A stretch of 25,587 nucleotides of DNA from an uncultured Candidatus Saccharibacteria bacterium (lineage in GTDB: Bacteria; Patescibacteriota; Doudnabacteria; UBA920), in contig CAYOVR010000002.1 in NCBI GenBank assembly GCA_964407465.1, positions 1 to 25,587 on the forward strand. Reading direction: 5' to 3'. The position numbers and the translations under genes are program-made. Positions 2,698 through 4,941 of the stretch are shown piece after piece (position 1 is the stretch's first letter; every line of letters starts with the position of its first letter). The notes under the pieces are model-generated. The model did not search any database, was not told the DNA's origin, and saw only the letters and a program-made list of their open reading frames with translations.

Positions 2698-3328
2698 TTA
2701 ATCTCTTTTGTGCCACGATCATATAAGCAGCTTCCAATTCTAGATTAAGATGCCTTAACATATGTGCCATCTGTAATCTAGTTCTTTTAATCATATCTAC
2801 TGAAAGAGGCTTAGAATAATCTGGTTCGACTGCGCCAGTAGCTGTAGGCTTACCCTCAAAGTGGGCACACTTCCATGCGTAATCTCCGGGAGTGCCCTCA
2901 CTGGTTGCACTCGAGCCCCATTGTTCTACTTTAAATACTCGAGAAGTATTACCAGAAGATCCGAAACTAAGCATTCCGTTAGGAGAATACAAGCCTCTCT
3001 TTTTGGGGTACAGTTGTGATGCTAATTGAGGGTAATAAATAACAGCATCTAAATATACAGATAGTTCTGTAGCTTTTACCCAACACAATGTATTGGATTC
3101 AATCTTATTGGTATTTGGATTAACTTTACCGATTTCAATACCAACTTTATTAACAAAGGTTCCATCTTTATCTACAAGATAAGGTAGAAGAGAAATGAAT
3201 CCTGAAGTTTTTGAAGACTTAAACCATTCTTTATAAAAGTGTCTATCTTTATTTTTCTGAGGTTCTTCTGTTTGTTCAAATGTTACAGGGGTTTCTGGAT
3301 TATCGAAGCCCCAATTTTCTTCTGTCAT
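2690..3328 (-). CDS. hypothetical protein
   Basis: 212-aa ORF coupled to the AAA gene by an ATGA overlap; acidic N-terminus followed by a beta-rich region. Confidence 0.8.
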   Translation of the reverse strand: MTEENWGFDNPETPVTFEQTEEPQKNKDRHFYKEWFKSSKTSGFISLLPYLVDKDGTFVNKVGIEIGKVNPNTNKIESNTLCWVKATELSVYLDAVIYYPQLASQLYPKKRGLYSPNGMLSFGSSGNTSRVFKVEQWGSSATSEGTPGDYAWKCAHFEGKPTATGAVEPDYSKPLSVDMIKRTRLQMAHMLRHLNLELEAAYMIVAQKRLNG

Positions 3329-4941
3329 GTGCTTAGTGTCCGTGCCTTTGTGCTAGTATTCTCAGATGTTCTTACAGGTGACTTCAAGGCGTGAAGTACT
3401 TGATCGGCTTCGTCCTTTTGTTCAGTCGATGCCCAATCCCATTCTTTTACTGCGGTTTCATACATAACTCTAACTGAGTCTGCATGACGAATCCACTGAC
3501 GGTTACGCTGCTTAGGAATTTCTTCAGTCAAATCGTCAGTAGTAATTGGTCGACGTTCATCAATAGAAACCTTAACTTTAGTTTCTCTGATGAGGCCCTT
3601 AATTTCTGCGCCAGTAAAGGTTATAGTACGTTCAGCAAGCTTCTCGAGATCAAATTCTTCATACCGAGTACCAAGATGTACCCTGAGAATTTGCAGTCGT
3701 TCGATATGAGTTGGGAAACCAACAAAAAGAATCTTATCGACACGACCTGCTCGTAAGATCTCAGGAGACAGCTGATCAATTCTGTTGGCAGCCATCATAA
3801 GAGTAGTATCTTCTTCGAGTTCTTGAATGTTAGTTAAGAACTCTGCTTGTACCCTAGAAGAAGTACCAGCATCTCCCTGGTAATCTCCAACACCAATGTC
3901 TCTACCGTACTCGTCAATCCATGCAACGATGGGAGACATGATCTTAAGTTGCTTAAACATTTCACGAGCCTTACGTTCTGACTCGCCAATGAATTTATCA
4001 AAGACCTTACCCATACCAATACGTGCAAGGTCTTGATTTAGTTCTGATGCAGTAGCTTCACAGATAGCTGACTTACCAGTACCTGGTACACCAACTAAGA
4101 GAATCTTATGCATGATAGGAATGTCAAGCTTGTTGGCGTCTTCACGATTAAGCTGAGCCCAAGCCATATGTTTGATGAGTTTCTTTGCGTAATCTAAACC
4201 ACCAATGTCATCAAGAGTAAGTTTAGGCTTACCAACATCGATCATAGAATTACGTTTAAAGTTCTCTTTACGAGTATTTTCAACTGCTTGAGCGTTGAGC
4301 ATACCGTGTTCATCAATAGACTTAAGACAAGCTCTAATAAATTCTGACTCAGTCAGTCCAAGAGATGCACGAACTAAATGAGCTTCGTCATCACACTTAA
4401 CTTCTAGATTGTTAACAAGATAACTAATCAATGCACTCATTTGTGGTGCATCGGGAGTTTCTGTTTCTACATAAGTTGCAAGATCAATAAGACCTGATGG
4501 AATTGTTTCATCATGAGGAGCAATGAAACAAATACGTAATCCAGTATAGATTTCATTGTTCTTAAATGATTCTCTATAGTTACGAGCCAACTCAATCATG
4601 AAAGGAGTTAATCCTTCAAGGAGTTTAGCTGTACCAGTCATAATAAGAACTGCATTACTCTTCTTATTAATTAATTCAAGGAGAGCACTATCAGACTGGA
4701 AGATAGGCTTAGCATTAACTGGACCAGAAGTTTCTTCAACAAAAGTACCCCATACTTCTAGCTTCTTATCAGGAGTAATCTGAAGAAGACCTTCAAGACC
4801 ATGAGTATAATAAATAGAAGTATCTGAATCACCAAAAAGAACTTGTGTTTGAGTGATGATATCATCAACTACACGAGGGATCTCTTTAGTGGGCATCCAG
4901 ATAAGGGGTTGCCCAGAACGTAATGCTGTAGTGATATTCAC
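3325..4941 (-). CDS. AAA+ ATPase (Ycf46-like/Cdc48-type architecture: degenerate N-terminal AAA-like domain plus intact C-terminal AAA domain)
   Basis: Walker A GVPGTGKS, pore loop KFIGESE, Walker B AWIDE, second region of homology AANRIDQLSPEILRAGRVD, and the 'LDDIGGLD' motif before the AAA domain. GTG start overlaps the upstream TGA. Confidence 0.9.
   Translation of the reverse strand: MNITTALRSGQPLIWMPTKEIPRVVDDIITQTQVLFGDSDTSIYYTHGLEGLLQITPDKKLEVWGTFVEETSGPVNAKPIFQSDSALLELINKKSNAVLIMTGTAKLLEGLTPFMIELARNYRESFKNNEIYTGLRICFIAPHDETIPSGLIDLATYVETETPDAPQMSALISYLVNNLEVKCDDEAHLVRASLGLTESEFIRACLKSIDEHGMLNAQAVENTRKENFKRNSMIDVGKPKLTLDDIGGLDYAKKLIKHMAWAQLNREDANKLDIPIMHKILLVGVPGTGKSAICEATASELNQDLARIGMGKVFDKFIGESERKAREMFKQLKIMSPIVAWIDEYGRDIGVGDYQGDAGTSSRVQAEFLTNIQELEEDTTLMMAANRIDQLSPEILRAGRVDKILFVGFPTHIERLQILRVHLGTRYEEFDLEKLAERTITFTGAEIKGLIRETKVKVSIDERRPITTDDLTEEIPKQRNRQWIRHADSVRVMYETAVKEWDWASTEQKDEADQVLHALKSPVRTSENTSTKARTLST

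What the first reader, a model, noticed from the sequence alone, without database searches (positions are those of the whole stretch)
3325..4941. AAA+ ATPase embedded in the Ubl locus: candidate segregase/unfoldase for tagged proteins
Seen in sequence: a 538-aa AAA+ with an intact C-terminal module and aromatic pore loop (KFIG) lies between the Ubl core and the two distal E2 genes, on the same strand in a nearly gapless gene run. Established knowledge: Cdc48/p97, PAN and Mpa extract or unfold tagged substrates. Inference: this could be the reader arm that completes a write-erase-read system. It has no C-terminal HbYX motif (ends RTLST), so docking on a 20S proteasome is not supported.
Basis: partly seen in the sequence, partly recalled or inferred. 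Interest (0 to 1): 0.68.

Follow-up and report, generated by a model that had tools for sequence, protein, structure and literature searches.

The report
Phage Cdc48-like unfoldase in Ubl locus
A large uncultured phage encodes a Cdc48/p97-like protein-unfolding ATPase that has been inherited together with a ubiquitin-like tagging and de-tagging gene set across a whole phage lineage, so it is a credible but unproven "reader" of tagged proteins.

Summary
The ORF is real: 3325-4941, minus strand, 538 aa, GTG start. It is a catalytically intact classical-clade AAA+ (Walker A/B, KFIG pore loop, sensor-1, both Arg fingers).

There is no substrate-binding N domain. Residues 1-232 are a degenerate, P-loop-less D1-like AAA domain, and the model aligns with p97 residues 214-763 (D1+D2).

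In one well-supported clade (100/98), all 59 testable loci carry a ThiS-like Ubl ending in Gly, an E1, a JAB peptidase and E2-like paralogues. All 23 loci with more distant phage AAAs lack them.

The link has a single evolutionary origin, so it cannot be separated from shared descent. The tightest partners are two downstream genes, one with a Whirly/PUR fold. In the main subclade an intrinsic terminator separates the Ubl from the AAA. Two distant E1-Ubl modules have no AAA.

The main subclade also encodes an HslV/BPH-like Thr peptidase. The window's subclade and assembly do not.

It is a new variant of a known kind.

The parts
3325..4941 (-). AAA+ ATPase ORF, 538 aa, GTG start: a tandem 'N-less' AAA (degenerate D1-like domain plus active D2)
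4246..4941 (-). residues 1-232: D1-like alpha/beta domain plus lid-like helices. It has no Walker A or B ('PLIWMPTKEIPR' sits where the P-loop would be).
   Evidence: alignment; model; aligns with p97 D1 from residue 214
3511..4245 (-). residues 233-477: active classical AAA module (D2) with AAA_lid_3
   Evidence: rmsd 2.3-2.6 A to p97 D2 and Vps4
4069..4092 (-). Walker A, GVPGTGKS (G284, P286, G287, G289, K290, S291 invariant in the family)
3985..3996 (-). pore loop 1, KFIG (aromatic residue kept as F/W/Y; G319 invariant)
3910..3927 (-). Walker B, VAWIDE (D343 and E344 invariant)
3742..3786 (-). sensor-1 N386 and second region of homology with Arg fingers R397 and R400 (all invariant)
3418..3495 (-). 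clade-specific C-terminal helical motif (W483, Y494, W501, W503, S505, Q508), followed by a disordered tail that ends RTLST
   Evidence: absent from sister-clade alignments except L063
2690..3328 (-). g212, directly downstream with a 4-nt overlap, present in every clade member; Whirly/PUR-alpha/MRP fold (binds single-stranded nucleic acid)
2422..2697 (-). g91, third gene of the unbroken AAA-g212-g91 unit; no known family
7016..7270 (-). ThiS-type ubiquitin-like protein, 84 aa, ending GEKG
7295..8065 (-). E1-like ThiF adenylating enzyme (GAGGxG, DGD, invariant Cys190 in NPGELSCQER)
8558..9835 (-). JAB/JAMM metallopeptidase (HSHP-x7-S-x2-D)
8062..8589 (-). Cys-rich 175-aa ORF. It corresponds to the C-terminal part of the longer (560-626 aa) JAB proteins of the other subclade.
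9890..11566 (-). 558-aa protein with an E2-like region (matches the E2-family HMM) and a C-terminal Cys-rich segment
11568..11981 (-). g137, conserved first gene of the block; function unknown
4938..6930 (-). four ORFs (282, 119, 176, 78 aa) inserted between the Ubl and the AAA only in the window-like subclade; variable content
355..1185 (-). E2-like paralogue, 276 aa, with a conserved Cys in C-x-G-Q
2..355 (-). 5' part of a second E2-like paralogue, cut by the contig end; 67% identical to L004's 325-aa protein (Prok-E2_D 20.8 bits)

Best explanation
The gene encodes a hexameric, ATP-driven protein unfoldase or segregase. Its architecture is an inactive D1-like ring stacked on an active D2 ring with an aromatic pore loop, and it has no N domain. 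It is the motor of a phage-encoded ubiquitin-like modification module. In that module the E1 adenylates the C-terminal Gly of the ThiS-like Ubl, E2-like paralogues transfer it to target proteins, JAB removes or matures it, and the AAA extracts or unfolds the marked proteins, probably through adaptor proteins (g212 and g91 are the candidates) and not through a domain of its own. In the window's phage no dedicated peptidase is present, so the expected outcome is disassembly, inactivation or hand-over to host proteases. Shown: the fold, the intact catalytic motifs, the identities of Ubl/E1/JAB/E2-like genes, and strict co-inheritance. Inferred: hexamer formation, conjugation, any physical or functional link between the Ubl and the AAA, and the targets.
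For: The ATPase and pore machinery is intact and invariant across 30 homologues. The protein is closest to the D2 of VAT/Cdc48/p97 by sequence and to p97 D1-D2 by structure (Z 26.8, model 1-501 against p97 214-763). The gene is flanked on both sides by Ubl-system genes in every member of the clade: g558 (E2-like), JAB, E1 and Ubl upstream, and 2-3 E2-like paralogues downstream. In 59 of 59 testable loci the AAA occurs with E1 and Ubl, and in 49 of them the Ubl gene is the immediate upstream neighbour. The reverse scan with E1 found the AAA in 52 of 55 loci, and two more full sets sit in genome bins. The block persists down to about 33% AAA identity while other neighbours come and go. The Ubl looks conjugation-competent: GEKG (one GDKG) conserved, 53 of 59 ending at Gly, and 6 with a 2-residue tail that implies processing. 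E1 has an invariant Cys and JAB has a full JAMM motif. In the main subclade an HslV/BPH-like Thr peptidase with an invariant T2/D18/K42 is encoded about 10 kb downstream, which would complete a tag-unfold-degrade set there. An intein sits in the P-loop of one orthologue.
Against: The association has a single origin (one clade at 100/98), so it is one independent observation and cannot be told apart from lineage-wide synteny. WhiB, SSB and UDG are conserved in the same block. AAA, g212 and the Ubl set have identical distributions. The sister clade has the same two-domain architecture (TM 0.70 to phage SM1) but no Ubl genes (0 of 23). Distant E1-Ubl(-JAB) modules lack the AAA. The AAA has no recognisable Ubl-binding domain. 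Its unbroken partners are a Whirly/PUR-fold protein and g91. A strong terminator follows the Ubl in all 49 loci where it adjoins the AAA (36 distinct spacers). The window's own protein has lost the aromatic C-terminal tail that most relatives keep.
Confidence: 0.45

Rival explanations
1. The AAA works with its two inseparable downstream genes (the Whirly/PUR-fold g212, and g91) on nucleoprotein complexes. For example it could strip or recycle single-strand-binding or replication and recombination proteins. It would sit next to the Ubl genes only because this phage lineage keeps the whole early-gene block in order.
For: AAA-g212-g91 are adjacent or overlapping in all 60 loci, whereas genes have been inserted between the Ubl and the AAA in 10 loci. 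All top 36 PDB matches for g212 are PUR-alpha, Whirly or MRP1/2 proteins, at E 2e-5 to 4e-3. The block lies among RNase H, SSB, UDG, helicase and PNKP genes. A terminator separates the Ubl unit from the AAA unit in 49 loci.
Against: E2-like paralogues lie downstream of AAA-g212-g91, so the trio is enclosed by Ubl-system genes. A Whirly fold does not prove nucleic-acid binding. Classical-clade AAAs with this kind of pore loop act on proteins (established knowledge). g212 is never found without the Ubl set either.
Confidence: 0.25
2. It is a general phage 'Ycf46-like' unfoldase used for host takeover or proteostasis, as presumably in the Ubl-less sister clade. Its substrates would be chosen without any tag and possibly passed to host proteases such as FtsH.
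For: phrog_8638 matches at E 2.2e-63. Homologues occur in Agrobacterium, Rhizobium, Pseudomonas, Rhodobacter, Aeromonas and Mycobacterium phages with no ThiF. There are full-length structural matches to phage 'ycf46' proteins. The sister clade shows no conserved Ubl-like neighbours.
Against: The Ubl-linked clade is discrete, with its own C-terminal W-rich motif and its own partners. It was never seen without the Ubl set in 59 testable loci. A dedicated peptidase was gained within this clade.
Confidence: 0.2
3. The AAA serves the conjugation machinery itself. It might unfold or release E1/E2-Ubl intermediates, or present targets to the E2-like proteins, instead of reading finished conjugates.
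For: The evidence is positional only: the gene lies between the E1/Ubl and E2-like genes.
Against: No known E1-E2 cascade needs an AAA (established knowledge of Bil, Bub and CBASS, PMC11601596). Distant modules work without it.
Confidence: 0.07

Closest known systems
Cdc48/p97/VAT (type II classical AAA segregases)
   Same: Best sequence matches are to their D2 (E 2.5e-58). The model superposes on p97 D1+D2 (residues 214-763, Z 26.8). It has the aromatic pore loop, two Arg fingers and AAA_lid_3. These enzymes act on ubiquitin-tagged proteins (established knowledge).
   Different: No double-psi-barrel N domain. D1 has no Walker A or B. The TIGR01243 score is 119 against a cut-off of 803. No HbYX or PUB-binding tail. 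Encoded by a phage.
Pex1/Pex6 and Rix7/NVL (tandem AAAs)
   Same: Comparable structural alignment (Pex1/Pex6 8u0v_A: Z 24.6, rmsd 5.8 A, 459 residues aligned; Rix7 lacking its N domain: Z 24.8). In Pex1/Pex6 an inactive D1 sits above an active D2 and the complex extracts ubiquitinated Pex5 (established knowledge, not tested here).
   Different: No N-terminal domains, a single gene and not a heterohexamer pair, and no detectable specific sequence relationship.
Proteasomal ATPases PAN / Mpa(ARC) / Rpt
   Same: Classical AAA module (NF003069 E 2e-33, far below its cut-off). These read Ubl or Pup tags in archaea and actinobacteria (established knowledge; PMC8755798).
   Different: No coiled coil or OB ring, no HbYX or GQYL tail, and a tandem architecture instead. 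No proteasome-like gene in the window's subclade or assembly.
Phage 'Ycf46-like' AAA ATPases (phrog_8638; e.g. Pseudomonas phage SM1, Agrobacterium phage JP1, Mycobacterium cluster with Catdawg and Firecracker)
   Same: Same two-domain architecture and length (TM 0.70 to SM1; 26-32% identity). They form the sister clade in the tree.
   Different: These phages have no Ubl, E1, JAB, E2-like, g212 or g91 genes and lack the C-terminal W-rich motif. Their function is unknown.
Bacterial Ubl conjugation systems (Bil type I/II, Bub/6E, type II CBASS, PRTRC-like cassettes)
   Same: They combine Ubl, E1, E2 and JAB. The E1 and JAB here give weak hits to PRTRC_ThiF and PRTRC_A (E about 1e-5, far below cut-off), and the E2-like genes match Prok-E2_D.
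   Different: Those are host or mobile-element defence systems, and no AAA partner appears in the papers I read (PMC11601596; PMC1779556 has zero mentions of AAA). Here the module is phage-borne, has 3-4 E2-like paralogues and carries an AAA.
HslUV, and the phage or orphan proteasome homologues (PPH, AAH, BPH)
   Same: The main subclade encodes a ~203-aa Thr-peptidase-like protein closest to BPH and HslV.
   Different: Its candidate partner would be a classical-clade AAA, not HslU. Fuchs et al. 2021 found no AAA+ co-occurring with the new homologues and no actinophage AAH (PMC8665760). It is absent from the window's subclade.

Membership tests
Classical AAA clade (Pfam PF00004 + PF17862) | AAA domain above the gathering score, with Walker A, Walker B and sensor-1 | tested here: met
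   PF00004 scores 89.8 bits against a cut-off of 21.2, and AAA_lid_3 scores 27.9 against 27.2. Motifs are invariant in 30 homologues and verified by translation.
Classical AAA clade (Pfam PF00004 + PF17862) | Second region of homology with two arginines, and an aromatic-hydrophobic-Gly pore loop 1 | tested here: met
   R397 and R400 are invariant. KFIG is present with invariant G319.
Cdc48/p97/VAT family | Full-length family model (TIGR01243) above its cut-off | tested here: not met
   119.4 bits against a cut-off of 802.65, and only the D2 region matches.
Cdc48/p97/VAT family | N-terminal double-psi barrel / beta-clam cofactor-binding domain | tested here: not met
   The model's residue 1 aligns with p97 residue 214, so nothing precedes D1. 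The protein is only 538 aa.
Cdc48/p97/VAT family | Two nucleotide-binding AAA domains | tested here: not met
   The D1-like half lacks Walker A and B in all 30 homologues.
Proteasome-activating nucleotidases (PAN/Mpa/ARC) | Family model above its cut-off; coiled coil plus OB ring; C-terminal HbYX or GQYL | tested here: not met
   NF003069 scores 116 against 500 and TIGR03689 scores 51.8 against 504.75. The N-half has an alpha/beta AAA-like fold. The tail ends RTLST.
phrog_8638 (phage AAA of unknown function) | Profile match over most of the length | tested here: met
   E 2.2e-63, residues 83-477 against profile positions 96-512 of 568.
Ubl-dependent unfoldase (functional class, not a sequence family) | Physical recognition of the Ubl or of Ubl conjugates | not testable with these tools
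   This needs binding and unfolding assays. See Tried and rejected for the one in-silico attempt, which gave no verdict.
Ubl-dependent unfoldase (functional class, not a sequence family) | Co-occurrence with Ubl/E1/JAB beyond what shared descent explains | tested here: inconclusive
   59 of 59 loci within the clade and 0 of 23 outside it, but the link arose only once on the tree. Distant modules lack the AAA.
Prok-E2_D (for the two distal 'E2' ORFs) | Pfam PF14460 above its gathering score of 25 bits | tested here: inconclusive
   The window ORFs give no hit. Family members L007 (32.6 bits) and L009 (34.4 bits) pass, and four others score 16-21 bits. The window's g276 aligns with the L007 member at E 1e-15.

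The most novel reading that the evidence does not exclude
This lineage of ~200-kb phages (WhiB-encoding, so possibly actinophages) carries its own ubiquitin-proteasome-like pathway: Ubl, E1, several E2-like enzymes, a JAB deconjugase, a Cdc48-like unfoldase and, in the main subclade, an HslV/BPH-like threonine peptidase. It would use this pathway to mark and then unfold or destroy chosen host or phage proteins during infection. The window's phage would be a peptidase-less version in which the AAA alone inactivates or extracts tagged proteins.
Probability: 0.3. Interest if true: 0.85.

Novelty: new variant of a known kind. Interest (0 to 1): 0.64.

Why it matters
Known bacterial Ubl conjugation systems (Bil, Bub, type II CBASS) are host defences, and no downstream reader has been described for them in the papers I read. 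Tag-dependent unfolding is known from eukaryotes, archaea (SAMP) and actinobacteria (Pup). A virus of bacteria that brings its own tagging enzymes together with a Cdc48-like motor would show that the write, erase and read logic of ubiquitin signalling also exists as a compact viral toolkit, and some relatives add a proteasome-like peptidase. It would give a small, tractable system (an N-less AAA of 538 aa and an 84-aa Ubl) for studying how an unfoldase recognises a Ubl. It would also supply the first candidate AAA partner for one of the orphan proteasome homologues, for which Fuchs et al. 2021 found none.

Tried and rejected
1. Complex prediction of the full-length AAA (alignment A1) with the Ubl (A3) scored 0.00 in both runs, with no verdict. 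This is neither support nor evidence against binding.
2. A single-sequence IMG/VR scan with the AAA found nothing. The alignment-based scan worked.
3. A library-wide phmmer search with the D1-like half alone (residues 1-232) found only 9 proteins at E up to 1e-3. The window/L004 branch is long (1.48), so this half is too diverged for a single-sequence search and the result says little about family size.
4. Pfam, PHROGs and NCBIfam gave nothing for g212, g91, g137, g282, g176, g78, g102, g330 or the Ubl. The Atlas gave nothing usable for g91.
5. Consensus promoter and terminator scans of the window were at or below shuffle expectation. The 85-nt spacer after the window's Ubl is unstructured (z 0.85).
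6. The Pfam Proteasome model missed known family members, so I used a family alignment with positive controls instead.
7. A search for g212-, g91- or Ubl-like neighbours of the sister-clade AAAs found none, even at lax thresholds.
8. The g212 scan of IMG/VR recovered only the same contigs, so phyletic patterns cannot separate 'AAA with Ubl' from 'AAA with g212'.
9. Host identity is unresolved. The MAG has only one WhiB outside this contig, its other AAA hit is FtsH, and relatives sit in bins labelled Nitrososphaera, Cyclobacteriaceae and Iamiaceae, which is probably mis-binning.
10. I considered a sulfur-carrier (ThiS/MoaD-type biosynthetic) role for Ubl-E1-JAB. It is less likely given the 3-4 E2-like paralogues, but it is not excluded.
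Full report
**Observation.** The window is one whole 25.6-kb contig (C2) of a 243-contig, 1.45-Mb metagenome bin. All its genes are on the minus strand. The ORF at 3325-4941 (minus) encodes 538 aa from a GTG that overlaps the stop of the preceding ORF, with an AGGAG 10 nt upstream. Pfam finds AAA (residues 280-408, E 2.6e-25) and AAA_lid_3. I confirmed the quoted KFIG pore loop, Walker A (GVPGTGKS), Walker B (VAWIDE), sensor-1 N386 and Arg fingers R397 and R400 by translation. All are invariant in an alignment of 30 full-length homologues. 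The protein ends RTLST.

**What the protein is.**
- By sequence it is closest to the D2 of VAT, Cdc48 and p97 (E about 1e-58 to 1e-44). It falls far below the cut-offs of the CDC48, PAN, FtsH and Mpa family models.
- An AlphaFold2 model built on the alignment (mean pLDDT 83) aligns over residues 1-501 with p97 residues 214-763, which is D1 plus D2 (Z 26.8). Residues 232-501 superpose on isolated D2 or Vps4 modules at 2.3-3.0 A.
- The N-terminal 232 residues have an AAA-like alpha/beta core and a lid-like helical bundle but no Walker A or B. The protein is therefore an 'N-less' tandem AAA with a pseudo-ATPase D1. It has no Cdc48-N, OB or coiled-coil reader domain.
- A W-rich helical motif (W483...Q508) follows the lid and is specific to this clade.
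- PHROGs places the protein in phrog_8638 (E 2.2e-63). BFVD shows full-length matches to phage proteins that UniProt names 'ycf46' (TM 0.77 and 0.70).

**Neighbourhood in the window, in order of transcription on the minus strand.**
- g137.
- A 558-aa protein with an E2-like region and a Cys-rich tail.
- JAB, with a full JAMM motif.
- A Cys-rich 175-aa ORF.
- A ThiF-type E1 (GAGGxG, invariant Cys190).
- An 84-aa ThiS-like Ubl ending GEKG.
- Four variable ORFs.
- The AAA.
- g212.
- g91.
- Two lineage-specific ORFs.
- Two E2-like paralogues, the last one cut by the contig end.

In the Ubl family the GEKG terminus is conserved in 58 of 59 copies (one is GDKG). In 53 of 59 the protein ends at the Gly, and six carry a 2-residue tail, which implies a processing step. 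The E2 label rests on family-level evidence. Two members pass the Pfam Prok-E2_D cut-off, four are sub-threshold, and the window's own copies are linked to them by homology.

- The protein database holds a large family of full-length homologues (525-565 aa, 33-42% identity) on contigs of up to 255 kb.
- Seven contexts from assemblies and 74 IMG/VR loci were analysed with iterative HMMs built from the window's proteins.
- All 59 loci of the orthologous clade that include upstream DNA carry E1 and Ubl. JAB, g137, the 558-aa protein, g212, g91 and 2-3 E2-like paralogues are present wherever the locus reaches them. The one apparent exception, L013, begins at the AAA.
- All 23 loci with more distant AAAs lack every one of these genes. 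This includes Agrobacterium phage JP1, whose whole genome has no ThiF.
- A reverse scan with the E1 alignment returned 55 loci. Of these, 52 have the AAA, one ends 2.4 kb after the Ubl, and two (L138, L139) are distant E1-Ubl(-JAB) modules without the AAA, g212 or g91.
- Two more full sets lie on phage-like contigs in genome bins.

**How much that test proves.**
- A maximum-likelihood tree puts all Ubl-linked AAAs in one clade (100/98) that is sister to a Ubl-less phage clade (99/98). The link therefore arose once. It is strict and old, but it is a single independent event, and the same block also conserves WhiB, SSB and UDG.
- g212 is found only on the same contigs, so phyletic patterns cannot tell which neighbour the AAA works with.
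- Several facts weaken a simple 'one operon' reading. AAA, g212 and g91 are never separated, whereas 2-4 genes have been inserted between the Ubl and the AAA in 10 loci, the window among them.
- g212 folds (pLDDT 83.6) into the Whirly/PUR-alpha/MRP class of single-stranded nucleic-acid binders. All top 36 PDB matches belong to that class.
- In all 49 loci where the Ubl directly precedes the AAA (36 distinct spacers) there is a strong GC hairpin plus a T-run, which is an intrinsic terminator. The window-like subclade lacks it.

**An unexpected strengthening.** In the main subclade a ~203-aa protein about 10 kb downstream passes the Pfam Proteasome cut-off (30.5 bits against 22.4). It occurs in at least 29 of 49 loci and in two complete ~210-kb genomes. 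It starts Met-Thr-Thr and has invariant T2, D18 and K42. Its closest solved relatives are BPH and HslV. It is absent from the window-like subclade, including a 90%-complete genome, and from the window's assembly, with working positive controls. Fuchs et al. 2021 reported no AAA+ co-occurring with novel proteasome homologues (PMC8665760).

**Most likely mechanism (confidence about 0.45).** The protein is a hexameric D2-driven unfoldase that acts on proteins marked by the phage's own Ubl cascade. Recognition would be supplied by partner proteins and not by a domain of its own. In the window's phage there is no dedicated peptidase. The rivals are:
- A nucleoprotein-remodelling role with g212 and g91 (0.25).
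- A tag-independent 'Ycf46-like' phage unfoldase, as in the sister clade (0.2).
- A helper of the conjugation step itself (0.07).

**Comparison and novelty.** It works like Cdc48/p97 or Pex1/Pex6 but is not a member of those families: the N domain, an active D1 and the family-model score all fail. The Ubl module resembles the Bil, Bub and PRTRC-type cassettes. In the papers I read, none of those is described with an AAA partner, and searches of the held library found no description of this phage module. I rate it a new variant of a known kind. The functional link between the AAA and the Ubl remains unproven. The one in-silico binding attempt gave no verdict and is listed only under things tried.

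Noticed in passing
L008:19991-20602 (also L014, L019, L029, L035, L036, L039, L043-L049, L053-L056 and others; L141, L142): An HslV/BPH-like proteasome homologue of about 203 aa. It starts MTT and has invariant T2, D18, K42 and GxGxxYA. It is encoded about 10 kb downstream of the AAA in the main subclade. It is absent from the window-like subclade and from the window's assembly.
   Followed up: yes
L144:7973-10867 (contig CAZBTQ010000001.1, in a bin labelled Iamiaceae): The orthologous AAA is 964 aa because an intein (Intein_splicing plus a LAGLIDADG homing endonuclease) is inserted just after the Walker A region.
   Followed up: yes
Ubl-AAA spacers of L008, L010, L014-L062 (76-191 nt): A conserved strong GC-rich hairpin (GTGGGGGAG...CTCCCCCAC) followed by a T-run sits immediately after the Ubl stop. 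It looks like an intrinsic terminator and may set high Ubl expression relative to the downstream genes. It is missing in the window (6931-7015) and its subclade.
   Followed up: yes
window 2690-3328 (-): g212 overlaps the AAA stop by 4 nt and has a Whirly/PUR-alpha/MRP-type fold (binds single-stranded nucleic acid). It has no sequence-family match.
   Followed up: yes
window 8062-8589 and 8558-9835 (-): The window's JAB (425 aa) plus the overlapping Cys-rich 175-aa ORF correspond to a single 560-626-aa JAB protein in the other subclade, so this is a gene fission or fusion.
   Followed up: partly
C-termini of the AAA orthologues: Nearly all members of the main subclade have Trp or Phe within the last 1-5 residues (for example ..TWK..SWDLKV..KGNW), and 5 of 10 members of the window-like subclade end in Phe. 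The window and L004 have lost the aromatic residue. It may be a docking tail. It does not track the presence of the peptidase.
   Followed up: partly
L138:4787-12175 (IMGVR_UViG_3300031576_000008): A distant module reads JAB, ThiF, Ubl, RadC-like JAB, with a reverse transcriptase (RVT_1) about 3 kb upstream of the JAB and no AAA.
   Followed up: partly
window 9890-11566 (-): This 558-aa protein combines an E2-like region with a C-terminal Cys-rich (zinc-ribbon-like) segment. It could be an E2/E3-like fusion.
   Followed up: no
window 12644-25365: The rest of the contig carries WhiB, RNase H, an Rv2632c-like protein, a SpoU methylase, a polynucleotide kinase-phosphatase, an SF2 helicase and a possible deaminase. 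This looks like a phage early or replication region. The contig is probably a phage fragment binned with the MAG.
   Followed up: partly
IMGVR_UViG_3300042868_009074 (L021/L127 and L051/L122): One 267.8-kb IMG/VR record holds two complete, divergent copies of the whole module at opposite ends. It is possibly a chimeric assembly of two related phages.
   Followed up: no
G000:C92:434-1225 (L003): The only other AAA hit in the window's assembly is a housekeeping FtsH. The assembly has no Pfam Proteasome hit at 94.6% completeness.
   Followed up: yes
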